A stretch of 32,000 nucleotides of DNA. Origin: Candidatus Jordarchaeales archaeon. Lineage in GTDB: Archaea; Asgardarchaeota; Jordiarchaeia; Jordiarchaeales; Freyrarchaeaceae. Both the position numbers and the translations under genes were made by a program. Positions 14,188 through 32,000 of this stretch are shown in pieces. The stretch is from assembly GCA_038858525.1 (NCBI GenBank), contig JAWCFL010000001.1:60001-92000 (forward strand). The letters are read 5' to 3'. The notes beneath the pieces were generated by a model. That model had not been told where the DNA came from and did not search any database. It saw only the letters and a list, made by a program, of their open reading frames with translations. Numbering within the stretch: position 1 is the stretch's first letter; the number at the start of each line of letters is the position of its first letter.

Positions 14188-14286
14188 ACACTCATCCTCG
14201 TCTTCCTTACTTTTAGTGATGAAAGACTGCACTGCTGCCAAGAAAGAGAAGCTTCGGGTTTCATGCAATTCGCGGTGCTGCCGCCA

Positions 14287-14820
14287 CTACACTATGTTTG
14301 ACACCCTCAGCATCCACGCCACATACTTCATGTCCTCCTCACTCAGCTTCCCCGCCACCGAACCATTAAGGACCAGAAGCTTAGCCTTCCTGTCCGGCAG
14401 CGCCCCCATCACCTGGCCGAGTGCCACTACGAGCATCTCCCTAGGCAGCTTCTCCACGACAAGCCTCGCAACTTCAAGCTTAGCCTCCTTGTCCGGCATT
14501 CCGCCTATGATGTCTCCCGCCTTGCGTGCCATCTCTTCTGGCGGCAGTTTTTCGGTGATGGTTTTTGCGGCCTTGAACTTGTATTCTTGTGGTAGTGCCT
14601 TTATTATTCCGAGGGATTCGCTTGCTAGAACTTGTGGTGGTAGCTTCTGAGCTAGCTCTATTACCAGCTTTATGGCTTCCTCCTCTCTCCTATTCATCAC
14701 CAGCGTCTCTATTATTGGAGGTATCATTAACGGGTTTTTCAATGCAGTCTTTGAGGTACCACTCATACGAGAGACGGGCCATCCCCTCATCTCAATATAC
14801 TGCATACACTTCATCGCCAA
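14287..14820 (-). CDS. Hypothetical alpha-helical repeat protein
   Basis: Three to four repeats of about 33 aa: KLPPQVLA..IIKALP, KLPPEEMA..IIGGMPDKEAK, KLPREMLV..VMGALPDRKAK. The start may be internal (MSGTSK or MNRREE). Confidence 0.7.
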   Translation of the reverse strand: MAMKCMQYIEMRGWPVSRMSGTSKTALKNPLMIPPIIETLVMNRREEEAIKLVIELAQKLPPQVLASESLGIIKALPQEYKFKAAKTITEKLPPEEMARKAGDIIGGMPDKEAKLEVARLVVEKLPREMLVVALGQVMGALPDRKAKLLVLNGSVAGKLSEEDMKYVAWMLRVSNIV

Positions 14821-14824
14821 ACCC

Positions 14825-14998
14825 CTATCTGTCCCTAGGGAGTGTTAAAATTGTTTCGCACACCATTCTCTTCCGCTCCTCCGTCTTCGGCTCCGTTATT
14901 ATGGCGGGGATGATGACCGACGCATCATCCTTTGCCACCCTCTTGCAGTCCACAATAGTGATAATCGCCTCAACGTCTCCCATCTTCGCCCTCAACAC
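14825..14998 (-). CDS. Hypothetical 57-aa protein, absent from the ORF track
   Basis: GTG start 3 nt after the upstream stop; MLRAKMGDVEAIITIVDCKRVAKDDASVIIPAIITEPKTEERKRMVCETILTLPRDR; tightly packed between neighbours. Confidence 0.55.
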   Translation of the reverse strand: MLRAKMGDVEAIITIVDCKRVAKDDASVIIPAIITEPKTEERKRMVCETILTLPRDR

Positions 14999-15001
14999 GT
15001 A

Positions 15002-15370
15002 TTACCCGCTCTTCGGCTTTCCCAGAAGCGTTAAGGTTAGGTCTCCCCTGGTGAGGGTGGCGTCCGGATGCTTAATGAGCGACCAGAGCTCAGTTGAGAA
15101 GGAGCCAGCGTTGACCAGTATAGGGATGGGGACGCCGCGCCCCCCAGTCATTTCCGTGACGCCCTTAACCTCCCTAACGATGCTTGTGATCGTTTCGAGT
15201 GAGGCTGTGTCGCTGGAGGTCTTCGCCTCAAACATGAATATGAGCGGCCCGCCGCCCTCGAGCTCCACCCTCTTCTCCCCAGGTAGGAACCCCTTGATGA
15301 AACCGAGCACCTTCTCCGCCAGCCCACCCCTCTTAACGTCCTCCAGCGACACCACAGTAAGATCGATCAT
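15002..15370 (-). CDS. Hypothetical protein
   Basis: ATG preceded by GGAGGAGG; globular composition; part of a co-oriented gene string. Confidence 0.65.
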   Translation of the reverse strand: MIDLTVVSLEDVKRGGLAEKVLGFIKGFLPGEKRVELEGGGPLIFMFEAKTSSDTASLETITSIVREVKGVTEMTGGRGVPIPILVNAGSFSTELWSLIKHPDATLTRGDLTLTLLGKPKSG

Positions 15371-15623
15371 CTTCCTCCTCCCCCAACTCCCTTACCGTCA
15401 GCTCCCTGGCATCTATCACTCCCTTAATCCCGGCAAGTGCACAGATGACGTCAACTAGGAGGCTGTGGGCTCCCCTCACCCCACCCTCAGCTTTCCCCCC
15501 AGTACTCCCAGCTTCCTGAAGGAAGCTGTCGAGGGTTACGTATCTGCTCTCGCGCCTTCCACCCTCGCAACGCTCACACCCTTCCCTCATCCTCCCACCC
15601 CCATCTGCGCGGCAGCAAAACAC
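15333..15623 (-). CDS. Hypothetical protein with CxxC (likely start MREGCERCEGG)
   Basis: Purine-rich coding-like strand; overlaps the next gene by 38 nt. Confidence 0.35.
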   Translation of the reverse strand: MFCCRADGGGRMREGCERCEGGRRESRYVTLDSFLQEAGSTGGKAEGGVRGAHSLLVDVICALAGIKGVIDARELTVRELGEEEDDRSYCGVAGGR

Positions 15624-15914
15624 CCACCCCTCAGTGTATTAAACTTTGCGCTCTCAAAGCCATCCCCTCACCCACAACCCCACCAGAACGCACCCGGCGC
15701 CACTCTCTCCCAACACCCATACACACAACCACTCTAACCCCGAGCCAGCAACCCACCCGAACCAACAATAACGCACATAAAAGCACTACTTAATCCACAC
15801 AACCAAAGACGACCACCACGAAATCACCCCCAACAGCCCTAACCAGCCGCAACAAAACCACAACAACAAAAAACACAACACAGCTACACCCCCAAACGAA
15901 ACCACCCCGCCAAC

Positions 15915-15930
15915 CACGAAAAATTTAATA
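15915..15930 (+). promoter_or_regulatory. BRE/TATA promoter of tRNA-Asp
   Basis: GAAAAA followed by TTTAATA, ending 28 nt upstream of mature G1; conserved in the duplicate copy. Confidence 0.7.
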
Positions 15931-15957
15931 GCACGCCACACAACAAGTTTGCTGAGC

Positions 15958-16115
15958 GCCCCGGTGGTGTAGCCACCATAAAACGGCTGTAACGGCCGAG
16001 CATACGGGACAGTGATAAGCCCCTAATGTCAACGACGGTGGCAGAACTCCCGCGACCCGGGCGGTGCACCCTTTTTTGGGTGTATTAGGGATTTCAAATC
16101 CCGGCCGGGGCGCCA
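15958..16115 (+). tRNA. tRNA-Asp(GUC) with four introns (17/17a 15975-15992; 32/33 16011-16026; 37/38 16032-16046; 53/54 16062-16092); CCA encoded
   Basis: Removing 80 nt gives the 78-nt GCCCCGG UG GUGU AGCCCGGCCGA GCAU A CGGGA CUGUCAC UCCCG CGACC CGGG UUCAAAU CCCGG CCGGGGC G CCA. Each insert forms a BHB-like motif. Confidence 0.9.
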
Positions 16116-16213
16116 TTCCTTCTTGTTCGTTGGTTTATGTTTTCCTTATTTTTAAGGAATAGTGGGGTTTTTACGTAAATTATTTAAGTTTTGTGTTGGG
16201 CAAGGTTTAGGTA

Positions 16214-16357
16214 GGGCGGGTAGTCTAGAGCGTGGTGTGCGGGGAACTTGGTATGATTCCTCTGTTTTGGGGAATGAAACCGGGTTTGGGACCCGGAGGC
16301 CCTGGGTTCAATGCTGCAGCGTGATTTTCGCTGGGCGAGTAGATCCCAGCCCGCCCA
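16214..16357 (+). tRNA. tRNA-Pro(UGG) with three introns (15/16 16229-16246; 25/26 16258-16278; 58/59 16312-16342); CCA not encoded
   Basis: Removing 70 nt gives the 74-nt GGGCGGG UA GUCU AGCUUGGUA UGAU A CCGGG UUUGGGA CCCGG AGGCC CUGGG UUCAAAU CCCAG CCCGCCC A. A TATTTAAG box lies about 25-30 nt upstream. Confidence 0.88.
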
Positions 16358-16396
16358 TTATGTTTCTGGATGGCTTTAAACTGGAGGGAGTTGTAA

Positions 16397-17962
16397 GTGA
16401 AGTTTGCGTTGAAGGGTTACATGGAGCTCAGTGATAGTATTCCTAATGAGGCGATTGGTGAGATTGAGAGGTTTTTAGGTGATGTTCGTGATGCCCTTTT
16501 CTTGAGGGGTGTTCCTCGTGGACGGGAGAGTGAGGGGGCGCGTCTAATCGGGTGGAGGGTGGAGGGTGATAGGTTCTATGTTGAAATTGAGAGTGGTAGG
16601 TATGTGCGTGCTCATGTTGCTTTTGTTAGGTTGAGAAATGCCCTGGCGGGTTTTCTTGGTTCTAAGTTTAGTGTTGGTGTTCGATCTTGTAGGGTGTTTG
16701 ATTATGTTTTGGAGTTTGAACTTGAAAGAGAGCCCTTGGAGCCTGTGAGTGTTTTGTTTGCGAGGGATATCAAGTTTGACGGTAAGAAGGTTACGGTTTT
16801 CTTGGAGGAGCTGAATGACGAAGCCTTAGAGAAGAATTACCCTGACCGTGTAATAAGTCGGATTCGTGAAAAGGTTTCGAGGCAGCATGTTTCAGGTAAG
16901 GGAGAATTCACTCGCACGGTTAGACGTAATGTTAAAGGATTTGAGAGGTATAAGCTGAGTGAGGACCCAACCGAGGTGGCGGTTAAGCTTGGTTGGGTTA
17001 AAGAGTACCCTGCAGCGGGGATTTGGCAAATTATGCCGCCTATGGCGGCTTTGATTAGAGCTATGGAGGGGCTAATTGTCGACGAGGTTGCTAAACCTCT
17101 CGGGTTCCAAGAGGTTATGCTTCCACGTCTCATTCCACTTGAAGTTGAGTATAGGAAGGGGCATTTCGGAATTGCAAACGAGATTATTTGGGCTTGCCCA
17201 CCAGTTTCCCGGGATCCGAAGGAGTTCGAGGAAATTATGGATTACGTCGAGATAACCGGCGGCCCCCCGCCTGCTGAAATGCTGAGAGAGAAGCTCAGAC
17301 CACCCATGTATGGTCTTTCATATGCTCAGTGTGAGCCCTTCTACGAGATGTTTCATGGGGAGATAGTGGACTTGGACCTTTTAGAGAAGGAGCCAATTAT
17401 GCTTTTTGATAGAAATGGACCGACGTACCGGTGGGAAAGCGGGGGGCTTAGGGGGCTTGAGAGGCTTAATGAGTTTCACAGGGTGGAGCTTGTTTTCCTT
17501 TCAACGCCTGAGAAATGTGTTGAGATAAGGAACGCTATACTTGAGAGGGCGGAAAAAGTTGTTGGCGAGATTCTGGATCTAGATTATAGAGTGGACGCTA
17601 CTACTGCCGTGTATCTTGAACATGCAGGAAAGACCGAGGAGAGAAAGGAGGAAGAGGACTTGGTTAAAACATATGACTTAACTGTTCTCTTGCCTTTCCA
17701 GACAAAAAGCAGGCCTGAAGCTGAACTTGAAGTGGCAAGTTTCCACGTTCACACGGATTTTTATGCCAAACGATTTAGTTTCAAGGATAAGAAAAGAAGG
17801 ACAGTCTTTACCGGGTGTGCTGGACTTGGCCCTTCAAGGTTTGCTTACGTTTTCTTAGTGAGGTATGGATTTGACTTTGAAGGATGGCCTTCTGAGGTCA
17901 AAGGATACATAGGGGACAAGCTTCCTGAGCCGCCACACATGCTGACATGGCCGAAGAGGTAA
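16397..17962 (+). CDS. serS: Seryl-tRNA synthetase, methanogen (type 2, zinc-dependent) form
   Basis: 521 aa with N-terminal ESGRYVRAHVAFVRL; YAQCEPFY, YRWESGG, EFHRVE and GCAGLG supply the Cys/Glu/Cys Zn ligands of mSerRS. Confidence 0.92.
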   Translation: MKFALKGYMELSDSIPNEAIGEIERFLGDVRDALFLRGVPRGRESEGARLIGWRVEGDRFYVEIESGRYVRAHVAFVRLRNALAGFLGSKFSVGVRSCRVFDYVLEFELEREPLEPVSVLFARDIKFDGKKVTVFLEELNDEALEKNYPDRVISRIREKVSRQHVSGKGEFTRTVRRNVKGFERYKLSEDPTEVAVKLGWVKEYPAAGIWQIMPPMAALIRAMEGLIVDEVAKPLGFQEVMLPRLIPLEVEYRKGHFGIANEIIWACPPVSRDPKEFEEIMDYVEITGGPPPAEMLREKLRPPMYGLSYAQCEPFYEMFHGEIVDLDLLEKEPIMLFDRNGPTYRWESGGLRGLERLNEFHRVELVFLSTPEKCVEIRNAILERAEKVVGEILDLDYRVDATTAVYLEHAGKTEERKEEEDLVKTYDLTVLLPFQTKSRPEAELEVASFHVHTDFYAKRFSFKDKKRRTVFTGCAGLGPSRFAYVFLVRYGFDFEGWPSEVKGYIGDKLPEPPHMLTWPKR

Positions 17963-22260: not shown

Positions 22261-24225
22261 ATGGCTGAAAAGGAGAGAAAAGCAGAGGAACCGGTTATTG
22301 GCGTCTACGTGTGCAAGTGAGGAGTAAACATTGGCGGGGTCATAGATGCCGAGGCAGTGGCGGAATACGCAAGTAAGCTACCAAACGTTAAGGTTGCGAA
22401 GACATACTCGTTCTTCTGCTCCGACCCAGGACAAAAGATGATAAAGGAAGACATCGAAACGCAAGGGATTAACAGAGTTGTAGTCGCAGCCTGTACGCCC
22501 AAAATACACGAGCCAACATACAGAGCGTTGCTACAATCAGCGGGACTTAGCCCATACTACCTTGAGATGGTAAACTTAAGAGAGCATTGCTCTTGGGTTC
22601 ACATGACAGATCCACAGTCGGCGACTGAGAAGGCCAAGAAGCTTGTGGCTGCAGGGGTGGCGAGAGCTAGACTGCTCGAAGACGTACCCCAGAAGAGGTT
22701 GCCCGTCGAACCTGCCGTCATGGTTATAGGTGGAGGCATTGCTGGAATAAGTGCTGCTCTGAGTGTTGCAAATCACGGAGTAAAAGTTTACCTTGTGGAG
22801 AAGGAGGCGACCATTGGAGGGCTGGCAGTCCGCTTAGACAGGACTTTTCCAACAGATGACTGCGCCATCTGAATACTTGCGCCGAAAATGGTTGAGGCTG
22901 CCAAGCACCCTAACATCAAAATATTCTCTTACACAGAGGTCTTGGACGTTAAGGGAGTACCGGGATCATACAATGTGAAGCTTCTTAAGAAGCCGAGATA
23001 CGTTGATGAGAAAAAGTGCACAGGGTGCGGCAGCTGCACAGAAGTGTGCCCCGTAGCTGTACCTGACGAGTTTAACTATGGACTGGGCTACAGGAAGGCG
23101 ATCTACATACCCTTCCCCCAGGCTGTGCCCAAAGTTGCGCTAATATCAATGGACGACTGCATCCAATGCAAGTCCTGCCAGAAGGAGTGCAAGGCGGGAG
23201 CAATAGATTACGAGCAGAAACCAGAAGAAATAGAGTTGACCGTTGGAAGCATAATAGTTGCAACGGGATTTGAGATCTACGACATAGCTAAACATGGCGA
23301 CTACGGTTACGGACGGTTCGAGAACGTCATAACTCAAATAGAACTGGAAAGAATGCTAAGCCCCACAGGACCCACCGGAGGAAAGGTCGTTAGGGTCTCG
23401 GATGGAGAGCACCCGAAGCGTATAGCGATGATACAGTGTGTTGGGTCAAGGGACGTGAAGAGGAACCCCTACTGCTCAGAGGTTTGCTGCATGGTCGCCG
23501 TTAAGAACGCCAAGATCATAAAACAGGAAAGCCCTGACACTGAAGTGATCATCTTCTACATGGATATCAGAGGAATAGACGAGGGGCATGAAGAGTACTA
23601 CTTGGCGACGCGCGAATATGGAGTAATGTTTGTAAGAGGAAGAGTGGCAGAGGTTATAGAGGACCCGGAAACCAAGAACCTTAAGCTTCTCGTCGAAAAT
23701 ACTCTCACTGGAGAACTGCTGGAGACAGAAGTAGATCTGTTGGTGCTTTCAGCCGCTGTAGTACCCTCTGAGGGCACGAGGAAAATAGCACAGATCCTAG
23801 GGCTTAATAAGAGGCCAAGTGGCTTCCTAGCACCGCAACACGTGGCACTAAATCCGCAGGAAACAAAAAGTCCGGGGATATACATCTGCGGAGCAGCATT
23901 GGGGCCGAAAAACATACCTTATGCTGTTTCGAGCGCTAGGGCAGCAGCAGCTGCAGCTACCGCATGGACGCTTTCAGGAGAAGTTGCCGTTGAAATGATG
24001 ATCCCAGAGGTTAATGAGGAGCTATGCGTCGGTTGCAGAAGATGTGAAAGAACATGTCCTTTCGGAGCCATAAAGGTCGTGGAGGGAAAAGCAGTGGTTA
24101 GCGAGGTACAGTGTAAGGGGTGCGGTTCATGCGTCGCTTCATGTCCAGCTCATGCTTTAGACATGCGTTACTACAGGGATAGGCAAATCATAGAGGAGAT
24201 AAAGGCGGCGATCAAATCACGCTAG
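22261..24225 (+). CDS. hdrA: Heterodisulfide reductase subunit A, selenoprotein (Sec20 at TGA 22318-22320; Sec204 at TGA 22870-22872), 654 aa
   Basis: One frame from the ATG at 22261 (GGAGGTG SD upstream) through two TGAs: IGVYVCK-U-GVNIGG (canonical CHCG) and TFPTDDCAI-U-ILAP (canonical C..CI). Also FAD motif GGGIAG, ferredoxin motifs and CSEVCCM. Joins track ORFs 22357-22872 and 22888-24225. Confidence 0.95.
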
Positions 24226-24230
24226 CTGAA

Positions 24231-24308
24231 TGGGTCTTGGCCGATGAACACGCTGGAGAAAGCTCAAAGCCCAGCGTGGAAGGCTCTGGCTAGCGGCCAG
24301 ATGACCCA
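24231..24308 (+). ncRNA. SECIS-like 3'-UTR element of hdrA
   Basis: Outer helix UGGGUC-U-UGGCCG/CGGCCA-GAU-GACCCA; AUGAA; helix CACGCUGG/CCAGCGUG; unpaired AGAAA and mini-stem GCU/AGC; GA on the 3' arm. Confidence 0.75.
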
Positions 24309-24397
24309 TCTGCTTCTCTTATTCTTCACTGTAGATGTTTTTGAGGAGTAAATGTTTTATAATACCGTTTGAAACAGTCCACCGAGGTGTTGTTAGT

Positions 24398-24814
24398 ATG
24401 CCCACGCCACGCTTCAGCATAGTGTCTTTCTGTTGCTGGAAGTGAGGCTATGGTGCCAGCGACTTGACAGGAGTTTCTAGGGTTCAGTATGACCCTTCAG
24501 TAATTATAGTGAGAGTGAAGTGCACTGGTAGAGTCGACGTTAAACATATACTGGAAGCGATAAGGCAAGGCGCTGACGGCGTCATGGTCGTTGGTTGACA
24601 CGTCGGCGAATGCGACTTTGGAGATGGGAACGTGAAGGCACGACAACGCGTGGAGTTCGCGAAAAAAGTTCTTGACAAGGTCGGTCTTGGAGGAGACAGG
24701 GTCAACATGTATAACGTTTCAGCGGCTGAAATCGGTAGGTTCAGGGACGCCATAATGGATATGGTTGAAAAACTGGAGAAAATCGGTCCAAACCCATTGA
24801 GGAACAACGAGTAA
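24398..24814 (+). CDS. vhuD: VhuD/MvhD [2Fe-2S] subunit, selenoprotein (Sec16 at TGA 24443-24445; Sec67 at TGA 24596-24598), 138 aa
   Basis: MPTPRFSIVSFCCWK-U-GYGASDLTGVSRVQYDPSVIIVRVKCTGRVD...GADGVMVVG-U-HVGECDF...NVSAAE...GPNPL. Both TGAs fall at conserved MvhD Cys ligand positions; GAGGTG SD upstream. Confidence 0.95.
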
Positions 24815-24833
24815 CCGATGAAAAAGGATTAGT

Positions 24834-24880
24834 GGGAATGATCCTCAGGCCTAAAGTTAAGTGTCTGAGGTGACTGGCCC
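24834..24880 (+). ncRNA. Eukaryote-type SECIS-like element 3' of vhuD
   Basis: Core AUGA-U/U-GA-C (24838-24842/24871-24874), helix CCUCAGGC..CU/AG.G.UCUGAGG and apical loop AAAGUUA. Confidence 0.75.
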
Positions 24881-24896
24881 TCGTAAGCGGTGGGCC
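24875..24896 (+). other. GC hairpin downstream of the vhuD SECIS
   Basis: TGGCCC-N11-GGGCCA inverted repeat; function unknown (possible RNA end or stability element). Confidence 0.35.
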
Positions 24897-24991
24897 AAAT
24901 CAAAAATAAATGATAAAGCATTACTTGTTGAGAAATAAGTGAGGCGATCTGACGTGTTGCGGTTTAGCTTTAGTTGCGGAGGGTGCCTGGC

Positions 24992-26410
24992 TTGAGTGAA
25001 CTTAGGAGAAGAGTTGATGCTATTACGGAGGCTGCGGACAGCTTTAGGGTAAGAGCGTTTTTCACTGGAGAAAAAGAGATAGTAGAGGCAGGGAAGTTTT
25101 CTAAGGGAGAGTACGAAAGATACTTGGATTACTTGCTAGAAGACGAGTTTAGGAGACGGCTTGTGCTCGGAGTTATAAGAGAAGGAGAGGGACTAACAAT
25201 AGAAGAGATAGCTCATAGAACAGGGTTTTCCAAGCTTGAAGTGGCTAGGCATGTTAATGCGTTAAGATACGAAGAATTAGTCGAATGTAAAGATGACGGA
25301 CTCGTAATTACCAGGAAGGAAGAACAGCGAAAAGTGCCTTATGAGAAAATAAAGTTCATTGTTGAAGAGGGATTATGCACTGGGTGCGGTGGATGCATTG
25401 CGGCTTGCCCGGTTTACGCCATAACTTTCATTGATGAGAAGCCTGTGATAGATGAAGGCAAATGTATAGGTTGCGGTATTTGCAACATTCACTGCCCTAG
25501 AACATTCTTCCCCATAAGCATGATTAGGGAAAGCTTGAAGGGCAGCCCTGTCAACGTGGAAACAGAGGGCGTATCGTTCTTTAGGCAAGCTTACACTGCA
25601 CAGACGGCCAAGGAGAAAGTGAAGCAGGTTTGCCAAGACGGAGGAATAGTGACTTCCATTCTAGCATATCTTTTCGATAAGGGAATGATAGACTGCGCTA
25701 TAGGCGTCAGAAAGGCGGATGAATATTGGAGGACGCAGGCAACGTTAGTTACTAACTTAGAGGAGCTACTTGGAATTGCAGGAACTAAGTATACGGTGAC
25801 TCCTTCAGTTTCCTTGTTGGAGGAAGTTAAGAGAAGGGGCTTTAGAAGAGTTGCTGTTGTTGGGGTTCCTTGCCAGATACATACTGTTAGAAAAGCTGAG
25901 GCTTACTCCTCTGAGCTCTTGTCGTCCCTTGGAGAGATTGTAGCTTTAATAGGGATTTTCTGCATGGAAAACTTCGGGTACATTGCCCTTAGAGAAATAG
26001 TTGAAAACCGTCTCGGCGTTAAACTCGAAGATGTTGCTAAGTTTAACATAGATAAAGGAAAGTTCTTTGCCCACACTAAAAATGGTGAAGAAAGATCGAT
26101 ACCAGTTAAAGAGATATCCATGTTAGCGAGGCATGCATGCCACTACTGCCCCGACTTAACTAATGAGTTAGCAGACATATCTGTTGGGTCTATAGGATCT
26201 TCGAAGGGATGGTCAACAGTGCTGGTAAGGACTAAGCGAGGGGAAGAAATATTTGAAGGAGCTTTAAGGGAGGGCTATGTAACCGCTAATCCGCTTCCGG
26301 ACGCCAGCATGGAGCTACTTCAGAAGCTGGCCAAGGGAAAAAGAAAGAGAAATCTTGAAGCATTAAGCGAGAGAGCAAGAGAGGGAAAATATGCAACACT
26401 AGTCATTTAA
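24992..26410 (+). CDS. Winged-HTH + 2x[4Fe-4S] ferredoxin + F420-binding FrhB/FdhB-family protein
   Basis: TTG at 24992 after GGAGGGTG. LTIEEIAHRTGFSKLEVARHVNAL (HTH); CTGCGGCIAACP and CIGCGICNIHCP; QDGGIVT, GTKY, VGVPCQ, GIFCMENF and CHYCPDLTNELADISVGSIGS. Confidence 0.88.
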   Translation: MSELRRRVDAITEAADSFRVRAFFTGEKEIVEAGKFSKGEYERYLDYLLEDEFRRRLVLGVIREGEGLTIEEIAHRTGFSKLEVARHVNALRYEELVECKDDGLVITRKEEQRKVPYEKIKFIVEEGLCTGCGGCIAACPVYAITFIDEKPVIDEGKCIGCGICNIHCPRTFFPISMIRESLKGSPVNVETEGVSFFRQAYTAQTAKEKVKQVCQDGGIVTSILAYLFDKGMIDCAIGVRKADEYWRTQATLVTNLEELLGIAGTKYTVTPSVSLLEEVKRRGFRRVAVVGVPCQIHTVRKAEAYSSELLSSLGEIVALIGIFCMENFGYIALREIVENRLGVKLEDVAKFNIDKGKFFAHTKNGEERSIPVKEISMLARHACHYCPDLTNELADISVGSIGSSKGWSTVLVRTKRGEEIFEGALREGYVTANPLPDASMELLQKLAKGKRKRNLEALSERAREGKYATLVI

Positions 26411-26468: not shown

Positions 26469-27596
26469 TTATAGCCGCTTAACTATAAAGTTTCCTTCGT
26501 TATCCTCTAACGTTACTTGGTAATTTTCGGCTTGCTCCTCATAATCGAAGGATATCTCCCCGCTAGGAGGTAACTCGCTTATGCCTTGAATGAATGGTTT
26601 AACTTCAAATAGTTCTTCCTTAATAGCGCTTACACGCACTGTTACTCCTCTTAAGACGCTGGTTGACGTATTTTTAACTGTAAAAGTTGTTTTTGATGCC
26701 CCCTTGTTCATTGAAACAATGATAAGGCGTGGGTCTAAGAGTTTGGAGAGAGGTTTGGGCTCTTCCACTGGTCTCTCAAAGATTTTCTCTTCGACCTTTT
26801 CCTCTGTAATCACGTTTATTGGGATCTGGAACTTTATGGATTCGCCGCCAGCCTTCACGCATTCCACCTCAAGATACCATCTAGAGTACGCCCCGAAGGT
26901 TAAAGACCAGTAGGTCACTTCGGGAGGTTCCCAAAGGTAGTTGTAGCTTGGCTCAGCGTATCCAGGTATCTTTATAGTCACGAAACCTGACCCTGGATTT
27001 CTCTCTTCGACAGAAAGAACCTTTTCTTTTGGTTGTTTTTTAACGTGAGCGCATACCGTTCTATACTGGGGACAGGCACATTGTACGTTTGCTTCATGGA
27101 CTAGGTTAACGAACATCGTTCTGACGTTTTGGGTGGAATAGTTTAGTTTGACTTCTTCTCCAGGTTTAAACGTATCTTTGTCCAGAGAGAAGGACATGCC
27201 CTTTATATTCATTGAAACTGGTGTCGCCTCAGCGGCCACTCTAGCTATTAGAGTCACTGGTTTCTCGGATTGTATCCGCCATTCTTCTTCGCGTGTTCCG
27301 GTTTTCTTTATGGAAAGTGAAGCTCTAAGAGTATAGTTGACCTTGTTGGGTATTGATGGGACGACACGTCTACTGATAATTAGTTCCCGTGACCGTATAT
27401 ATTCACCCTTCCTTAATATGCCTTCGCAGAAAACGTCGCTGCTCGCCACAGTGAGCTCGTTTCCACATGGAAGCTTAGTGAGGACGGAAAGTCCTCCACT
27501 CCAGATTTCCATATCTTCATCTATGCTAAAGACCGTCTTAGTTTTTAATGAGCCACCTACCTCTGCAACATCATCTGAAGACAGTTTTACAGACAT
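26469..27596 (-). CDS. Beta-sandwich protein, arrestin/Vps26-like by inspection, with a C-terminal domain shared with the FrhB-like protein at 28606-30093
   Basis: Two alternating-hydrophobicity beta regions (VVPSIP..VNYTLRASL; FSLDKDTFKPGEEVKLNY...IKIP...WYLEV...FQIPINV), a CxC-x5-CxH insert and an 87-aa tail. The ATG at 27596 avoids the overlap of the track start (27650). Confidence 0.6.
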   Translation of the reverse strand: MSVKLSSDDVAEVGGSLKTKTVFSIDEDMEIWSGGLSVLTKLPCGNELTVASSDVFCEGILRKGEYIRSRELIISRRVVPSIPNKVNYTLRASLSIKKTGTREEEWRIQSEKPVTLIARVAAEATPVSMNIKGMSFSLDKDTFKPGEEVKLNYSTQNVRTMFVNLVHEANVQCACPQYRTVCAHVKKQPKEKVLSVEERNPGSGFVTIKIPGYAEPSYNYLWEPPEVTYWSLTFGAYSRWYLEVECVKAGGESIKFQIPINVITEEKVEEKIFERPVEEPKPLSKLLDPRLIIVSMNKGASKTTFTVKNTSTSVLRGVTVRVSAIKEELFEVKPFIQGISELPPSGEISFDYEEQAENYQVTLEDNEGNFIVKRL

Positions 27597-27630
27597 GGGC
27601 CACAACCCAGAAAAGTTTTTACATGGAGAA

Positions 27631-28545
27631 CTACTTTTCGGTGTGAGCACGCACCACTAAATCTGCGAATACTTCCATGTCCTTTAGGAGAGTTTCCACT
27701 TTTTCCTCGTCTTTCTTATCGAATTTGCCGCTCTTCATTATAAGAACAGCTATGATGTATTTGAAGAGATTTAAGACCAATTCTTTCCCATCGCTTTTGC
27801 CTTTTCCCGTGAAGACCGCTGAGTCAACCATGAAAAAGTTTTCCCTTAGATTATTGCATGCGGTGATAAAGTCTCTCAGGTCAGCTCTAAGTTGCAATCC
27901 AGTACTTACTCCCTGAACATTATGGACTATGACGTTTCCCGCAGTGTCACTTATAATTACCTTTGCAGGTATTTCTGCTAGTTGTTTCTGTGCGTTTTCA
28001 AGGTGCTTCTGAAGCTCCTCATAGTGGGCTACCAAAATGTCCCTGAATATTTCGGCAAGTCTCTCCTGTTCATAAATGGAAGTCACATAGTACTTTGCAC
28101 CCCACTTGTCGAAGATGTCACTAAAAACGCGTTTAGCCTCGCTCAAGTTCTTCTCTAATAGTTCTTTAGCGTAATCCTTAACGTCGTACTTGTGGAAGAA
28201 AACATAAATTGCAGGCTTAACGCCTTCCTTTTTAAAGAAGTTCAAAACCTTCTGGAAGTAGTTTTTGGCTTCTTCAAACTTACCTGGGTCATGAAGGTCT
28301 ATCACTGGGATCAGAATATCTGTGCCAGCGAAAACTTTTGGGTCCTCTAAGTATGATTCAATGTATTGTTCCTGCCCGCCGAAATCGAAGAGGCTTACGT
28401 CAAGTCCCAAAAAGGGATGACGGCGCACCTCATACATCACGGTGGGAGCAATTCCTTTCGTCTCTTGGGGCTTCTTACCGGCAAAGGTTGTAAGGTATAT
28501 GCTTGTTTTTCCACTACCAGCCAACCCTATAAGTGAAATCTTCAT
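27631..28545 (-). CDS. Rag/Gtr-family small GTPase fused to a C-terminal roadblock/longin-like domain
   Basis: G1 GLAGSGKTS, G2 APT, G3 DFGGQ, G4 HKYD, G5 TSIY (compare RagA DCGGQ/HKMD/TSIW); C-terminal domain of about 120 aa beginning KVIISDTAGNVI. Confidence 0.85.
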   Translation of the reverse strand: MKISLIGLAGSGKTSIYLTTFAGKKPQETKGIAPTVMYEVRRHPFLGLDVSLFDFGGQEQYIESYLEDPKVFAGTDILIPVIDLHDPGKFEEAKNYFQKVLNFFKKEGVKPAIYVFFHKYDVKDYAKELLEKNLSEAKRVFSDIFDKWGAKYYVTSIYEQERLAEIFRDILVAHYEELQKHLENAQKQLAEIPAKVIISDTAGNVIVHNVQGVSTGLQLRADLRDFITACNNLRENFFMVDSAVFTGKGKSDGKELVLNLFKYIIAVLIMKSGKFDKKDEEKVETLLKDMEVFADLVVRAHTEK

Positions 28546-28605
28546 GCGGATCCCCTCCAGTTTCGGCTTACAAAAGAGGAAAAATTAGCTTTAAACGTTT
28601 CCGTT

Positions 28606-30093
28606 TCACTCCTTCTTAAGCTCAGCCATCGTGATACGCTTCACCAGTATGGGGCCACGTTTAGTAGCAACTCTCACCAAGTACTCCCTGTCATTTGATG
28701 CACGCGGATACTTGAATTCAAGCTCTTCTGATGGATGCCACATTTCGATGTCCGTTGTCCAGGCATTTGTTTCGAACAACTCATCAACGTGAGATATTCG
28801 CACATTTACGTCATAAAGGATCTGCCCTGAGCTGTTTTGAAGGACCAACAGAAGTTCCTGACCGCCATTCGTCAACGCAGACTCCACAATTTTAACAGGA
28901 GACTTACCAGTCAGTTTAATGCCCTCCATAACTTCCTTCTCTAATGGGATCGGCCCTGCCTTCAGTTCTAATTCTGCTAACGGCACCCCGGGAACTCTCA
29001 CGACGTAAGTTCGCCGTCTCTTAACAGTGTAAAGCTGAACCTTCTTAACTCTAGCCAAGTTCAGCACACTTGTAAGTCCCTGCCTGTCAAGCGGCTCAAC
29101 TTCAAGGTAACCATTCTCAGCGGCATTATAAAGAAGTTCAAGAGCAATGGGGGACCTCACTAGAACTGTTGAGTAGCCCTCGGGGGAGCCAACGCTACCA
29201 ACAGATATATCCGCGTCCTCAGAAGTCAAATCTGAACAGAAATAGCAGCTTGATGCTCTATACTTGTCTAGCCTGCTCAGAGGATATGAAGCCACTTTAT
29301 CTCCGTCATAGTAAACGTTAAATTTACCAGCGGAAATGCTCATCTTCGAAATAGACGCCAAAGGAATCTTCTCTTCTTCCTCAAAAAAGGTCTTTAAGCC
29401 CTCATAGGAGAACGAGTCCATACAGAACAAGCCTACCTTAAGGATATTAGCTCTCATCAAGAGGCGAAGCATCCCAGCAGGGAACCCCTGCATTTTCTTA
29501 ACAGCAGATATATTGCATGGAGTGCCAACGAAAGCCAAAGAGGTTAACCCTCTTTTTATCGCGTCAACTAAAGCTCTAACAGTGTAACTGTGCGAGTAAA
29601 CGCTACCTGAACCTTCCAGTATTTCCTCCTCAGTAGTGGCGACAACAGCTACAGGCTTCCATGGCTCCTCTTTGCTCTTATGCGTCACCACAGCACCATC
29701 AATTAATCCTTCTCTCAAGGCATAGAGAAGTAATCCGGTAACCACACCTCCATCCTGCCCACGAACAGCGTCGATCTTACACTTAGCCTTGTAAGCCGAG
29801 ATAAAATCACCTATTAAGTCATCCACATGAGTCCTTGTTCTAGGACATACATTATAGCACACTCCACAGGCGGTGCACTTTCCCTTAAGAGTTGGTCGTC
29901 CATCAACCATTTCCAGGGCGTTTTCGGGGCATGACGCTATGCAAGCAGTGCACTCTGTACAAACTCCTGAAAGTATGACGTGGTTTTGAAGACGAGCAAA
30001 GTTTTCGAATTTCTTTTCTTTTAGAGCGCGTTCCGGGTAAAAGTAGCTTACGTGAGTTTCTTCGTTAGACGATGACAAGCCCTCACCATCCAC
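28606..30093 (-). CDS. Ferredoxin + FrhB-family F420-binding protein with an extra C-terminal beta domain
   Basis: CTECTACIASCP, CTACGVCYNVCP, GQDGGVVT, FVGTPCN, GLFCMDSF and CYFCSDLTSEDADISVGSVGS, plus an extension of about 140 aa. Confidence 0.88.
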   Translation of the reverse strand: MDGEGLSSSNEETHVSYFYPERALKEKKFENFARLQNHVILSGVCTECTACIASCPENALEMVDGRPTLKGKCTACGVCYNVCPRTRTHVDDLIGDFISAYKAKCKIDAVRGQDGGVVTGLLLYALREGLIDGAVVTHKSKEEPWKPVAVVATTEEEILEGSGSVYSHSYTVRALVDAIKRGLTSLAFVGTPCNISAVKKMQGFPAGMLRLLMRANILKVGLFCMDSFSYEGLKTFFEEEEKIPLASISKMSISAGKFNVYYDGDKVASYPLSRLDKYRASSCYFCSDLTSEDADISVGSVGSPEGYSTVLVRSPIALELLYNAAENGYLEVEPLDRQGLTSVLNLARVKKVQLYTVKRRRTYVVRVPGVPLAELELKAGPIPLEKEVMEGIKLTGKSPVKIVESALTNGGQELLLVLQNSSGQILYDVNVRISHVDELFETNAWTTDIEMWHPSEELEFKYPRASNDREYLVRVATKRGPILVKRITMAELKKE

Positions 30094-30136: not shown

Positions 30137-32000
30137 TTATTGAGTGGTAGATATTTTTTGTCTTTGTCCTGGTGGACTTTTTTTCGTGTTATTTCTTTTT
30201 TGGGTAGAACCGTGCAGGAGAAAGAGCATTATGACTAGGATGGCTGTTATGGTTATTGTAAGCGGGATTCGCCATGTGACTTGTTGTGAGACTACTAATG
30301 GGAGGTTTAGGGGCACTCTGTGTTCCGTTATTGTTATAGATTTGGCATCTGAAACATATATTTTCCCATTTTCCGTTGTTGCTACTGCGTAAATTACTAT
30401 TTTGTTTTCGAGTTTTGTTGTGTCAAGTTGGAAGCAAACTTTATTTTCCTGTGAGGTTTTCGTGATTGTTTTTTGTCCACTTATAACTATAACTGTTAGG
30501 TTAACAATTCTGTAGGGATGAGTGGCTGTAATGCTTATTGATACTGTTTCGCCTTTCTTTGCTTCCGAGGGAATTTGTATATTGAACTGTGCCGGGGCTA
30601 TGTCTCCAGCTAACCATTCACACAAAGATTTGAATAATTGAATGTTGTCTTTTTCTGTTACCGAGGTGTTTTTCCATAGATCTAGGTCGGCGACAAACGC
30701 TACTTTTCCATTATGCCATTCGATGCATGAGGCAATGATGTATTCTTGAGTGATGGATGGAGCAACAAGTAATGGTCTTCCTCCCTCGACTTTTCCAGGG
30801 TCTTCTAGCAGGATTTCGTTTGCCCTGAATGTTTGAGGCGCTTTCGTGCATCTGGCAATTACAGTACCTGATAGACTCGATGTTGAGAAAGCGACATTAA
30901 AGTATGATGCGAGCTTGTTCGCGTTACTTGCTAGAGCTGGGTCATTCTCTCCGATTATAAGTAGGCTTCCACCTGATTGGACAAAGCTAAGTACGGCTTC
31001 AATCTCGTCTTTAGTATAGTTTTGTGAAGGGTAATAAACGACGAGTATGTCGAAGTTTCTAAGGGTTTCGAGTGTTATTTCGCTGGTAAGTTTCTCGAAG
31101 TAGAATAGACTTGCGTTGAGTGTGTTTCTGAGGATAGAGGTGTTGTTCCAGAGTTCCAAATAACGGTCTTGTTGATGATACTCATCGATAAGGATTTTTA
31201 TGGGAGCTCCCACCTCAATAATGGTTTGAAAGGGAGAGAAGCCTTCTTTGGTCACCGTTACGTTATATATGCCTCTTTCAGGGCAGGGAAAACGTATTTC
31301 GCCGTTTTTGTCTGTGATGTATGTGTGGTAGTAGTTTAATCCTTTTATGCACACATAAGCACCGTTAATGGGAGCGTTTCCATCTGAAACCCTGAGTGTT
31401 GTTATGCGCCCAGGAACCAAACGATTATCGACTTCTAAGTTTAAGCTCTTTATCGGCCCGAAGCATACTGGAAGCTCAGGGTCACCTAGAAGGATGTACT
31501 CAAGGAACAGTTGGGTATACGTCACGTTGTTTTCAAGTAGATTTTTGTATGACTTATAGTATTCCTCCTTAGCTTTGTATAGGGCGTACCCTGGACGTTG
31601 GTTGAATGGCTGGTCTGCACTGAAGAAAACTTTGAAGAAGGTGTAATCGAAGAAGGTGTCTGCGGCGTCGTTTATCGTGTCACCGCCGAAGGTTGTTCTG
31701 GTTGACGCTATAACCGCTATGGCGCCACCTCCAGAATTTTTAAGTAAAGATTCTGCAATGGAGTCGGTGCCACCATCAATGTAACCTGCAAGGCACGCTG
31801 ATATGAAAAACAAAGGTAGACGGTAACCATTAGAGAGGTTTTTCGCGGTATTTGAAGTTAAAAATGGTGGGGAGTTTTGCGCAATATAAAGACCAGTTTG
31901 GCTTCCGTGAGAGCATATATTAACTATCGCTACCCCTTCGCTGACTTTCTCCATAAAAGATTGCTCTGTGAGGTTGTCAAAATTCCGTATACTGTCATAT
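30137..32000 (-). CDS. Membrane-anchored peptidase C25 (gingipain-like) with Ig-like and GldG/DUF4350-like domains; 5' end outside the window
   Basis: Frame open to the window edge. Catalytic-type IVNICSHGS and FFISACLAG, AIAVIASTR and YILLGDPEL; ILIDEYH/GGSLLIIGE Rossmann-like domain; C-terminal TM helix with a basic tail. Confidence 0.82.
   Translation of the reverse strand, partial: YDSIRNFDNLTEQSFMEKVSEGVAIVNICSHGSQTGLYIAQNSPPFLTSNTAKNLSNGYRLPLFFISACLAGYIDGGTDSIAESLLKNSGGGAIAVIASTRTTFGGDTINDAADTFFDYTFFKVFFSADQPFNQRPGYALYKAKEEYYKSYKNLLENNVTYTQLFLEYILLGDPELPVCFGPIKSLNLEVDNRLVPGRITTLRVSDGNAPINGAYVCIKGLNYYHTYITDKNGEIRFPCPERGIYNVTVTKEGFSPFQTIIEVGAPIKILIDEYHQQDRYLELWNNTSILRNTLNASLFYFEKLTSEITLETLRNFDILVVYYPSQNYTKDEIEAVLSFVQSGGSLLIIGENDPALASNANKLASYFNVAFSTSSLSGTVIARCTKAPQTFRANEILLEDPGKVEGGRPLLVAPSITQEYIIASCIEWHNGKVAFVADLDLWKNTSVTEKDNIQLFKSLCEWLAGDIAPAQFNIQIPSEAKKGETVSISITATHPYRIVNLTVIVISGQKTITKTSQENKVCFQLDTTKLENKIVIYAVATTENGKIYVSDAKSITITEHRVPLNLPLVVSQQVTWRIPLTITITAILVIMLFLLHGSTQKRNNTKKSPPGQRQKISTTQ

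What the first reader, a model, noticed from the sequence alone, without database searches (positions are those of the whole stretch)
26469..30093. Candidate new system: FrhB redox protein, Rag-like GTPase and arrestin-like protein linked by a shared private domain
Three tightly spaced, co-oriented genes (gaps of 60 and 34 nt). The first (ferredoxin-FrhB) and last (arrestin-like) end in the same beta domain (28606-28899 and 26469-26732). My manual alignment of KNTSTSVLRGVTVRVSAIKEELFEVKPFIQGISELPPSGEISFDYE--EQAENYQVTLEDNEGNFIVKRL with QNSSGQILYDVNVRISHV-DELFETNAWTTDIEMWHPSEELEFKYPRASNDREYLVRVATKRGPILVKRI gives 23 identities in about 70 positions with two small gaps. Established: FrhB folds bind FAD and F420, Rag GTPases are nutrient-status switches, and arrestins are adaptors. 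Inference: the shared domain is a docking module that lets the GTPase engage either partner, or lets the two proteins assemble, coupling F420/ferredoxin redox state to a Rag-type switch. I know of no description of such a module.
Basis: partly seen in the sequence, partly recalled or inferred. Interest (0 to 1): 0.9.

Follow-up and report, generated by a model that had tools for sequence, protein, structure and literature searches.

The report
Rag-like GTPase module with private docking domain
In about half of the Asgard archaeal genomes searched, a Rag-type GTPase gene travels with a redox enzyme, a GAP-like longin protein and usually an arrestin-like protein that all end in the same rare ~90-residue domain, which points to an undescribed switch complex tied to the cell's redox and energy state.

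Summary
The C-terminal ~90 residues of the FrhB protein and of the arrestin-like protein are homologous (BLASTP E 2e-11). The gene gaps are 60 and 34 nt.

A third tail-bearing gene, a FLCN/NPRL2-like longin, and a CBS gene lie just beyond the window's end.

The tail is not a promiscuous Ig domain. A profile search of 1.84 billion proteins gave 88 hits. Most that could be classified belong to three architectures: longin-tail, FrhB-tail and arrestin-tail.

Among 400 Asgard genomes, 179 have the tail, usually three copies, and 154 have the single-copy GTPase orthologue. Both occur in the same families. FrhB-tail and GTPase are adjacent in 21 of 25 loci examined.

One lineage lacks the arrestin protein. 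In one of its genomes the tail sits on a non-homologous GltD/NfnB-like flavoenzyme. CBS domains are next to, or fused with, the longin protein.

Docking of the tail on the GTPase has only weak in-silico support (ipSAE 0.51, best control 0.00).

Best reading: a Rag-type switch hub with a private adaptor domain that links redox and adenylate status to the switch. I found no description of it in the literature library. The components are known kinds; the assembly is a new variant.

The parts
28606..30093 (-). FrhB-X: 2x[4Fe-4S] ferredoxin domain + FrhB N/C core (FAD/F420-type flavo-FeS protein) + C-terminal tail
   Evidence: Pfam Fer4 families, FrhB_FdhB_N 1.1e-22 and FrhB_FdhB_C 1.6e-42. All 12 cluster cysteines are invariant in 22/22 orthologues.
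28606..28899 (-). Tail domain copy 1 (Ig-like beta-sandwich, ~90 aa) on FrhB-X
   Evidence: BLASTP to copy 2 gives E 2e-11. Profile hits. The fold is inferred from the homologous tail in the AF2 model of the longin protein.
27631..28545 (-). Rag/Gtr1-like small GTPase. G domain is about aa 1-185 (27991-28545). A highly conserved C-terminal domain is about aa 186-304 (27634-27990) and is presumed roadblock-like.
   Evidence: Pfam Gtr1_RagA 77 bits. Best PDB sequence hits are 8yl2_A 1e-24, RagA 2e-12 and Gtr1 3e-11. P-loop, DFGGQ and HKYD motifs are invariant in 39 orthologues. The C-terminal domain has no Pfam or PDB sequence match.
26742..27596 (-). Arrestin-like part (N + C lobes, aa 1-285) of Arr-X, with an invariant CxCx6C Cys triad followed by His in the window protein (CxCx6CxH, SWIM-like signature; aa 173-184, about 27045-27080)
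   Evidence: ESM Atlas neighbours are Arrestin_N/C and Vps26 clusters at 0.91. 9/22 orthologues give a weak Arrestin_C hit, best 5.4e-4, and 7/22 a weak SWIM hit. hhalign to bona fide Asgard arrestins gives Prob 79%, P 1.6e-5, 234 columns. The AF2 single-sequence model failed here.
26469..26732 (-). Tail domain copy 2 on Arr-X
   Evidence: The beta-sandwich has pLDDT 55-78 (block means) even in the single-sequence AF2 model. Arr-type tails form one clade, 100/99.
30137..32000 (-). Peptidase C25-like / DUF4350 membrane protein (runs off the window). It sits between the longin-tail gene and FrhB-X only in this order of archaea and is probably not part of the core module.
   Evidence: Pfam Peptidase_C25 1e-25 and DUF4350 4e-9. 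It occupies this position in families f1/f2 only.
22357..26410 (+). Recurrent neighbours: HdrA-like (22357-24225, in-frame TGA at 22870), MvhD-like (24398-24814, TGA at 24443 and 24596), and an FrhB paralogue with an N-terminal winged-helix region (24974-26410)
   Evidence: Pfam results; TGA codons. An HdrA-like gene, usually with an FrhB paralogue, lies within a few kb of the module in 12 of 25 loci from 5 families.

Best explanation
The three genes are the window's share of a conserved Asgard module. Its full form is: small CBS protein, GAP-type longin with tail (here at window-equivalent 32772-33878, just outside the window), redox flavo-FeS enzyme with tail (FrhB-X), Rag-like GTPase, and arrestin-like protein with tail.

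The ~90-residue Ig-like tail is a private adaptor domain. It brings the longin regulator, the redox enzyme and the arrestin-like adaptor to one hub. That hub is most likely the Rag-like GTPase, presumably dimerised through its very conserved C-terminal domain.

The longin protein carries a 'DExRG[H/P]' motif and a conserved Arg loop, like FLCN/NPRL2/SMCR8. It probably sets the nucleotide state as a GAP, under the control of adenosyl-ligand-binding CBS domains. The redox-active enzyme couples F420/ferredoxin state (or NAD(P)H state in one lineage) to the switch. It may report that state, or it may be the enzyme whose engagement is gated, possibly with the nearby HdrA-MvhD proteins. The arrestin-like protein would be an output adaptor.

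Shown: the homology of the tails, their rarity, and the co-occurrence and synteny of the genes. Well supported: the folds and families of the parts. Inferred: who binds whom, GAP activity, and the direction of signalling.
For: Tail homology and rarity:
- BLASTP between the two tails gives E 2e-11.
- There are exactly three copies in the genome.
- A profile search of 1.84e9 proteins gave only 88 hits. Most that could be classified are longin-tail, FrhB-tail or arrestin-tail. The rest are short fragments, a few unclassified mid-length proteins, and weak partial hits to giant Ig-repeat proteins.

Co-occurrence:
- The tail is in 179/400 Asgard genomes, usually three copies each.
- The GTPase orthologue (E<=1e-60, single copy) is in 154/400, in the same families. 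Neither was found in at least 20 other families.

Synteny:
- FrhB-X is adjacent to the GTPase in 21 of 25 loci from 7 families.
- Arr-X is adjacent to the GTPase in 13 loci and within about 7 kb in 8 more.
- The longin-tail gene is in the same locus in 16.

Links to sensing and redox:
- The longin-tail protein is fused to four CBS domains in some lineages, and CBS genes flank it elsewhere.
- The same tail sits on a non-homologous GltD/NfnB-like flavoenzyme in one genome.
- All 12 FrhB-X cluster cysteines are invariant.

Longin protein:
- The AF2 model has pLDDT 78.7. It shows a longin domain whose best matches are the folliculin complex (6nzd_H, Z 10.6) and GATOR1 (8fw5_B, Z 10.4), followed by an Ig-like tail.
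- The invariant Gly of 'DExRG[H/P]' aligns with the GP motif of FLCN-like Asgard longins. A conserved Arg loop precedes beta5 (motif described in PMC12290439).

Tail lineages:
- Tails group by host protein, not by genome, so they are old, separately kept lineages.

Complex prediction:
- Input: two GTPase copies, GTP and Mg, plus the FrhB tail.
- ipSAE 0.51 (runs 0.52, 0.51, 0.46); best of 3 controls 0.00.
- The mark was reached by 58 of 80 solved complexes and 2 of 110 mismatched pairs. A score of 0.60 or less was seen in only 7 of those 80 and in both mismatches that passed, so this is weak support.
- The runs agree in at least 90% of contacts, and the partner's pLDDT is at least 80.
- My own alignments and the ligands differ from the tool's calibration.
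Against: - Family f13 (3 genomes, 2 genera) keeps FrhB with a well-conserved tail but has no GTPase orthologue, longin-tail or arrestin-tail. So the tail can persist without the proposed hub.
- The complex score lies in the range the tool itself calls more often wrong than right unless the guess was likely beforehand, and no interface was returned.
- The longin protein fails the Pfam NPR2 and Folliculin models. The genome has a separate true Folliculin-family gene.
- Most longin-tail proteins have GH, not GP, and the longin Z-scores are tied with non-GAP longins.
- The roadblock nature of the GTPase C-terminal domain was not tested.
- No expression or biochemical data exist.
Confidence: 0.45

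Rival explanations
1. The tails bind one another. They act as a hetero-oligomerisation domain that assembles the longin protein, the redox enzyme and the arrestin-like protein into one complex. The GTPase then meets this complex only through the longin domain, or not at all.
For: - The usual count is three tails per genome, each on a different protein. It stays at three in the f21 genomes examined in detail, where the arrestin protein is replaced by a second longin-tail paralogue.
- Ig-like sandwiches often pair.
- Eukaryotic GAP longins work as heterodimers (PMC12290439).
Against: - f13 keeps a single tail on FrhB with no partner tails.
- The strict co-occurrence with one particular GTPase orthologue, and the conserved FrhB-X/GTPase adjacency, are not explained by tail-tail binding alone.
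Confidence: 0.2
2. The tail is a localisation domain. It binds a shared non-protein or structural target, such as a membrane lipid, an envelope component or another conserved complex. The three proteins are thereby concentrated at the place where the GTPase acts, without direct tail-GTPase contact.
For: - The tail persists on FrhB in f13 without the GTPase.
- Foldseek places the tail near the lipid-binding sandwiches RhoGDI (E 2.4e-4) and UNC119.
- Eukaryotic Rag systems depend on a membrane anchor (established knowledge).
Against: - The fold matches are generic Ig-like ones: GH2 domains, transglutaminase and DUF3244 at Z 9-10.
- No lipid pocket or basic patch was analysed.
- The weak but control-clean GTPase-tail score favours direct contact.
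Confidence: 0.15
3. There is no common function. The tail is a generic Ig-like appendage, and the gene cluster is a chance neighbourhood of a metabolic FrhB gene and unrelated signalling genes.
For: - The fold is a common beta-sandwich.
- Neighbouring HdrA/MvhD/FrhB genes show that this is a redox-metabolism region.
Against: - There are only 88 profile hits among 1.84e9 proteins, and most classifiable ones fall in three architectures.
- Tail and GTPase co-occur at family level across 400 genomes.
- Synteny holds across families that share only 50-60% GTPase identity.
- The longin-tail protein is fused with CBS domains in some lineages.
Confidence: 0.03

Closest known systems
Eukaryotic Rag GTPase hub with longin GAP complexes (Rag/Gtr with GATOR1 NPRL2-NPRL3 or FLCN-FNIP, on Ragulator/EGO)
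   Same: - The GTPase is Rag/Gtr1-family, with an HKxD G4 motif and an extra C-terminal domain.
- Its partner has a FLCN/NPRL2-like longin fold, a Gly at the GP-motif position and a conserved Arg loop.
- Some lineages have two longin paralogues, which recalls the heterodimeric GAPs.
- Status sensors are attached to the switch.
   Different: - The GTPase is single-copy, so no RagA/RagC-type pair is evident.
- There is no DENN or NPRL2 C-terminal domain, and no TOR kinase.
- Partners are marked by a private Ig-like tail that is not found in eukaryotic complexes.
- A flavo-FeS redox enzyme and CBS proteins are core members.
- GAP activity is not shown.
Asgard 'GP-motif' FLCN/SMCR8-type longins and NPRL2-like longin proteins (PMC12290439; bioRxiv 10.1101/2020.10.19.343400)
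   Same: It is an Asgard longin with the conserved loop before beta2 and an Arg loop. NPRL2-like longins are known to be fused to varied domains.
   Different: - Those papers name no GTPase partner, and one asks which GTPase family it might be.
- Here the longin has a fixed genomic partner, a tail domain and CBS fusions.
- It fails the Pfam NPR2 and Folliculin models and mostly has GH instead of GP.
MglA-MglB and other prokaryotic small GTPase plus roadblock/longin regulator pairs
   Same: A prokaryotic Ras-superfamily GTPase is genetically paired with a longin/roadblock-superfamily regulator.
   Different: This module has more than two components, with a redox enzyme, CBS proteins and an arrestin-like protein. 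A shared adaptor domain links the partners. The GTPase is of the Rag type, not the MglA type.
Arl2/Arl3 with the Ig-like sandwich effectors PDEdelta, UNC119 and RhoGDI
   Same: A small Ig-like beta-sandwich serves as the GTPase-binding unit. Foldseek matches the tail to RhoGDI and UNC119.
   Different: There is no sequence relation and no evidence of a lipid pocket. The resemblance is at the level of a very common fold.
FrhB/FpoF/FdhB family electron-input subunits
   Same: Both FrhB Pfam domains are present well above cut-off, with a ferredoxin domain and all cluster cysteines.
   Different: It carries a C-terminal tail and sits beside a GTPase, not with hydrogenase, Fpo or formate dehydrogenase partners.

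Membership tests
Rag/Gtr GTPases | Match to the Gtr1_RagA family model above its cut-off; closest solved relatives are Rag/Gtr proteins | tested here: met
   PF04670 scores 77.2 bits (cut-off 22). PDB sequence hits: RagA 2e-12, Gtr1 3e-11, RagC 1e-7, ahead of Arl3 1e-6.
Rag/Gtr GTPases | G4 motif HKxD instead of NKxD, with intact P-loop and DxxGQ | tested here: met
   GxxGxGKTS, DFGGQ and HKYD are invariant in 39 orthologues. The HKxD rule is from my own knowledge of the family.
Rag/Gtr GTPases | C-terminal roadblock domain that mediates dimerisation | tested here: inconclusive
   A 115-aa C-terminal domain with 71% mean column identity is present. A helix-strand-strand-helix-strand-strand-helix pattern is only read from the sequence.
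Rag/Gtr GTPases | Obligate heterodimer of two paralogues (RagA/B with RagC/D) | tested here: not met
   There is one orthologue per genome in nearly all of 154 genomes, with no second copy in the locus. A homodimer is assumed, not shown.
Arrestin / Vps26 clan | Arrestin_N and Arrestin_C family models above cut-off | tested here: not met
   No Pfam hit for the window protein. In a six-frame genome scan, Arrestin_C gives 12 bits, E 0.25, covering 7-133/137 of the model, and this is the genome's only hit. Arrestin_N gives none.
Arrestin / Vps26 clan | Profile-level homology to bona fide arrestin-domain proteins over both lobes | tested here: inconclusive
   hhalign to 4 Asgard arrestin-domain proteins (5 found over the Pfam cut-off; the 534-aa one left out) gives Prob 78.9%, P 1.6e-5, 234 colinear columns; controls give 0.2-0.3%. 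9/22 orthologues have a weak Arrestin_C hit. ESM Atlas neighbours are all of the arrestin clan at 0.91. The AF2 model was unusable.
Longin GAPs (FLCN / NPRL2 / SMCR8 class) | Longin fold | tested here: met
   The AF2 model has the longin region mostly at pLDDT 85-97. VIA matches: 6nzd_H Z 10.6 (rmsd 3.3, 143 aligned), 8fw5_B Z 10.4, 8adl_S Z 9.7. Other longins such as Sec22 and VAMP7 are tied within 1 Z.
Longin GAPs (FLCN / NPRL2 / SMCR8 class) | GP motif before beta2 and an arginine finger nearby | tested here: inconclusive
   G53 is invariant in 19/19. The next residue is His in 13 and Pro in 1. R114 (14/19) and R118 (13/19) lie in the loop before beta5. hhalign places 'FDExRGH' on 'ADEvRGP' of FLCN-like Asgard longins, but at only Prob 7.5%.
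Longin GAPs (FLCN / NPRL2 / SMCR8 class) | Match to the NPR2 or Folliculin family model; DENN or NPRL2-type C-terminal domain | tested here: not met
   None of 19 family members has a Pfam hit. The NPR2 model finds nothing in the genome. The Folliculin model finds a different gene. The C-terminal part is a helical hairpin plus the Ig-like tail.
FrhB/FdhB family | Both FrhB domains plus Fe-S ligands | tested here: met
   PF04422 scores 80 bits and PF04432 145 bits. All 12 Cys are invariant in 22/22. Cofactor binding itself was not tested.
Promiscuous Ig-like domains (CARDB, Big, PKD and the like) | Match to a known Ig-like family, and occurrence on many unrelated proteins | tested here: not met
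   The tail region has no Pfam hit in any host protein. There are 88 hits among 1.84e9 proteins, and most classifiable ones fall in three architectures. The ESM Atlas gives no named neighbour with a score of 0.9 or more.

The most novel reading that the evidence does not exclude
This is an archaeal counterpart, possibly a forerunner, of the eukaryotic Rag-centred nutrient-sensing hub. A Rag-like GTPase would be regulated by a FLCN/NPRL2-like longin GAP under CBS (AMPK-gamma-like) adenylate control. It would be wired directly to cellular redox carriers (F420, ferredoxin, NAD(P)H) and to an arrestin-like adaptor. All parts would be held together by a dedicated docking domain that eukaryotes do not have.
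Probability: 0.3. Interest if true: 0.85.

Novelty: new variant of a known kind. Interest (0 to 1): 0.72.

Why it matters
Asgard genomes encode dozens of small GTPases and longin/roadblock proteins. Published work states that these genes rarely sit in operons, so GTPases cannot be matched to their regulators (PMC10933270). It also asks which GTPase the GAP-like Asgard longins serve (PMC12290439).

This module gives one such match. It is conserved across much of the phylum and carries a built-in label, the tail, for its members. It also ties a eukaryote-like switch to archaeal energy metabolism: an FrhB or NfnB-type enzyme, Hdr/Mvh neighbours and CBS sensors. That makes the ancestral role of Rag-type signalling directly testable with a handful of recombinant proteins.

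Tried and rejected
- AF2 of the arrestin-like protein without an alignment failed (pLDDT 35 overall; only the tail folded).
- Profile searches of the arrestin and longin families against PDB sequences gave nothing meaningful.
- The GTPase C-terminal profile hit only designed proteins, which I treat as spurious. Pfam found nothing in that domain.
- Pfam NPR2 found nothing in the genome. Folliculin found another gene.
- hhalign of the tail against arrestin lobes showed no relation (Prob 0.2-0.3%), so the tail is not an extra arrestin lobe.
- The ESM Atlas gave no named neighbour for the tail.
- Rfam, tRNA and tandem-repeat scans of the window were empty.
- I considered that the long Ig-repeat proteins in the profile search showed promiscuity. 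I rejected this, because they match only 30-45 profile positions in repeated He_PIG/Big-type units.
- I considered the peptidase C25-like gene as a module member. I rejected this, because it holds that position only in families f1 and f2.
- Literature searches for Asgard + FrhB + small GTPase returned no paper. The library lacks most subscription journals.

Full report
**Observation**

The region holds three minus-strand genes:
- 28606-30093, 495 aa.
- 27631-28545, 304 aa.
- 26469-27596, 375 aa from the ATG.

The gaps between them are 60 and 34 nt. Pfam assigns a 2x[4Fe-4S] ferredoxin domain plus both FrhB domains to the first protein. It assigns Gtr1_RagA (77 bits) to the second and nothing to the third. 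The last ~90 residues of the first and third proteins align with 29% identity and E 2e-11.

**The system is larger than the window**

An HMM of the two tails finds exactly one more copy in the 2.09-Mb assembly (92.7% complete). It lies at contig position 92772-93887, which is 0.8 kb beyond the window's end. That 369-aa protein (P0001, here 'X1') has no Pfam match.

An AF2 model built with 19 relatives has pLDDT 78.7. It shows a longin domain (aa 42-160), a helical hairpin and a seven-strand beta-sandwich tail.

A CBS-pair gene lies directly upstream of X1. So in this genome one strand carries, in order: CBS, X1-tail, a peptidase C25-like membrane protein, FrhB-tail, GTPase and arrestin-like-tail.

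**Organism**

Names attached to close homologues are Candidatus Freyarchaeota and Jordarchaeales. More distant orthologues are labelled Lokiarchaeota, Promethearchaeota, Helarchaeota, Hermodarchaeota and Hodarchaeota. The organism is an Asgard archaeon.

**Is the tail promiscuous?**

No. A profile of the three tails against 1.84 billion representative proteins gave 88 hits at E<=1e-3. By N-terminal domain, most of the classifiable hits fall into three groups: X1-type longin-tail (the most numerous), FrhB-tail and arrestin-like-tail. The remainder are short fragments, a few unclassified mid-length proteins, and about a dozen giant Ig-repeat proteins that match only 30-45 profile positions repeatedly.

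One hit is X1-tail fused to four CBS domains. No Pfam family and no named ESM Atlas cluster covers the tail.

Structurally the tail is a generic Ig-like sandwich:
- GH2 sandwich domains, transglutaminase and DUF3244 match at Z 9-10.
- Foldseek matches RhoGDI at E 2.4e-4, and also UNC119.

**Co-conservation**

Among 400 Asgard genomes, 179 carry the tail, most often three copies. The GTPase orthologue (E<=1e-60, nearly always single copy) is in 154 genomes. The two sets fall in the same families:

| Family | Tail | GTPase |
|---|---|---|
| f1 | 4/4 | 4/4 |
| f2 | 6/6 | 6/6 |
| f9 | 130/135 | 112/135 |
| f21 | 22/22 | 19/22 |
| f24 | 3/3 | 3/3 |
| f25 | 2/2 | 2/2 |
| f26 | 2/2 | 2/2 |
| f29 | 4/4 | 4/4 |
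| f18 | present | present |

Neither was found in more than 20 other families, for example f5 0/31, f12 0/19, f28 0/14, f14 0/12 and f23 0/12. Related genomes are not independent samples, so the family-level pattern is the fair unit of comparison.

There are three exceptions:
- f13 has a lone FrhB-tail in 3/3 genomes and no GTPase orthologue.
- The single f27 genome, 66% complete, has the tail but no GTPase match.
- G027 has the GTPase but no tail was found.

**Synteny**

I annotated 25 loci that hold the GTPase orthologue.
- FrhB-tail is the adjacent gene in 21.
- Arr-tail is adjacent in 13, and 1 to about 7 kb away in 8 more.
- X1-tail is in the same locus in 16.
- A small CBS gene flanks X1 in most of those loci. 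A four-CBS protein follows X1 in f24 or is fused to it in f25/f26.
- An HdrA-like gene, usually with an FrhB paralogue, lies within a few kb in 12 loci from five families.

Family f21 departs from the pattern. It has two X1 paralogues, and no arrestin-like gene was found there with the family profile. In one f21 genome the tail sits on a 588-aa Fer4_20 + Pyr_redox_2 (GltD/NfnB-like) protein next to a NuoF-like gene, instead of on FrhB. A non-homologous redox flavoenzyme carrying the same tail argues that a redox enzyme as such is what the module needs.

**The parts**

*GTPase.* The P-loop, DFGGQ and HKYD motifs are invariant. The nearest solved sequences are an unnamed GTP-binding protein, 8yl2 (1e-24), then RagA and Gtr1. 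Its C-terminal 115 residues are very conserved (71% column identity across the phylum). Paralogues in the same genomes align only to the G domain. I could not show that this domain is a roadblock fold.

*FrhB-X.* All 12 cysteines for three clusters are invariant in 22 orthologues. It therefore looks like a working redox protein rather than a decayed sensor.

*Arr-X.* Four lines of weak evidence agree on an arrestin-like protein:
- ESM Atlas neighbours.
- Weak Arrestin_C hits in 9/22 orthologues.
- The only Arrestin_C signal in the whole genome falls on this gene.
- hhalign to genuine Asgard arrestin-domain proteins gives Prob 79% over 234 columns, against 0.2-0.3% for controls.

Arr-X also has an invariant CxCx6C Cys triad, followed by His in the window protein, which gives the CxCx6CxH SWIM-like signature.

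*X1.* The best structural matches of the longin domain are the folliculin complex and GATOR1 chains (Z 10.6 and 10.4). Other longins score within one Z unit. The family has an invariant Gly in 'F-D-E-x-[RK]-G-H' before beta2, and a conserved 'S-x-R-x-K-x-R-x-G' loop before beta5. hhalign places the first motif on the 'DEvRGP' of the organism's own Folliculin-family longins, though at low probability. A 2025 paper describes this GP motif plus an arginine finger as the hallmark of GAP-type longins. It notes the motif in some Asgard longins and asks which GTPases they serve (PMC12290439).

**Tail history**

In a tree of 67 tails, the arrestin-type tails form one clade (100/99). FrhB-type and X1-type tails group by host protein within lineages, never by genome. 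The three tails are therefore old, separately maintained lineages and not recent copies.

**Does the tail dock on the GTPase?**

The single complex job used two GTPase copies, GTP and Mg, plus the FrhB tail, with my own alignments. The results:
- ipSAE 0.52, 0.51 and 0.46; best of three controls 0.00.
- The tool's verdict is 'weak support'.
- The mark was reached by 58 of 80 solved complexes and 2 of 110 mismatched pairs. A score of 0.60 or less was seen in only 7 of those 80 and in both mismatches that passed.
- The runs agree in at least 90% of contacts, and the partner's pLDDT is at least 80.
- No interface was returned.

Given the strong genomic prior, I take this as modest support. The f13 case, a tail without a GTPase, argues that docking on the GTPase cannot be the tail's only role.

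**Mechanism**

I commit to a GTPase-centred hub, with these roles:
- The tail is a private adaptor domain.
- X1 sets the nucleotide state, probably as a GAP, under CBS (adenosyl-ligand) control.
- The redox enzyme links F420/ferredoxin or NAD(P)H state to the switch, as an input or as the gated enzyme.
- The arrestin-like protein is an output adaptor that some lineages do without.

My confidence in the whole chain is about 0.45. That the genes form one functional module with a private shared domain I hold at about 0.9. The rivals are tail-tail assembly (0.2), a localisation domain (0.15) and coincidence (0.03).

**Novelty**

Asgard Rag-like GTPases, longins, NPRL2-like proteins and arrestin-domain genes are all on record. 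I found no paper in the library that links FrhB to a small GTPase in Asgard archaea. The papers I read did not mention this module or the shared tail. Tran et al. state that GTPase and regulator genes are generally not in operons in the cultured Loki strain. I rate this a new variant of a known kind, namely a small GTPase with a longin-family regulator. The limits of the library apply.

Noticed in passing
just outside the window: G000:C1:92772-93878 (window-equivalent 32772-33878, minus strand; L003:1447-2553) and C1:93901-94521 (L004:1901-2521): This is the third tail-bearing gene (longin-tail, P0001), with a CBS-pair gene directly upstream of it. Both belong to the module but lie beyond the window's end.
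   Followed up: yes
window 22870; 24443 and 24596: There are in-frame TGA codons at cysteine-equivalent positions. One is in the HdrA-like gene (22357-24225, '..DDCAI*ILAPK..'). Two are in an MvhD/VhuD-like gene (24398-24814). They look like selenocysteine codons, as in methanogen HdrA and VhuD. No SECIS element or tRNA-Sec was sought.
   Followed up: partly
window 24974-26410 (+): This FrhB paralogue has an N-terminal winged-helix-like region (weak HTH_20/MarR_2 hits at aa 56-104) and a ferredoxin domain. The same protein sits beside HdrA-like genes near the module in several distant families.
   Followed up: partly
window about 27045-27080 (Arr-X aa 173-184): A CxCx6C Cys triad is invariant across 22 orthologues and is followed by His in the window protein (CxCx6CxH, the SWIM zinc-finger signature). 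It lies inside the putative arrestin C lobe. Pfam gives weak SWIM hits in 7/22 orthologues.
   Followed up: partly
window 30137-32000 (-), continuing to about 32809: A gene of about 870-890 aa encodes Peptidase_C25, a CarboxypepD_reg-like domain, a DUF4350/GIFT-like domain and a C-terminal membrane anchor. It is wedged between the longin-tail gene and FrhB-X only in families f1 and f2. Its catalytic residues were not checked.
   Followed up: partly
L042:5944-7707 (-) (G089, family f21) and L042:10161-12020: The same tail sits on a GltD/NfnB-like protein (Fer4_20 + Pyr_redox_2, 588 aa) beside a NuoF-like gene. Tail-bearing proteins of this length (581-588 aa) occur in about nine f21 genomes.
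   Followed up: partly
G000:C8:53329-53490 (384-aa ORF; L063): The genome has a separate gene that passes the Pfam Folliculin cut-off and has a 'DEvRGP' motif and a 'DRTARGG' loop. Orthologues occur in f1 and f2. Its GTPase partner is unknown.
   Followed up: partly
L029 and L030 (G021, G031; family f13): FrhB-tail occurs alone, flanked by a GFO/IDH/MocA oxidoreductase and a TrmB regulator. These genomes have no GTPase orthologue, longin-tail or arrestin-tail. This is unexplained under the hub model.
   Followed up: partly
window about 13800-16400: This stretch has few convincing ORFs, and G+C rises to 0.57 with a strong swing in GC skew. It has no Rfam match, no tRNA and no tandem repeat. One 185-aa ORF (14287-14844, minus strand) looks like HEAT/PBS-type repeats.
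   Followed up: no
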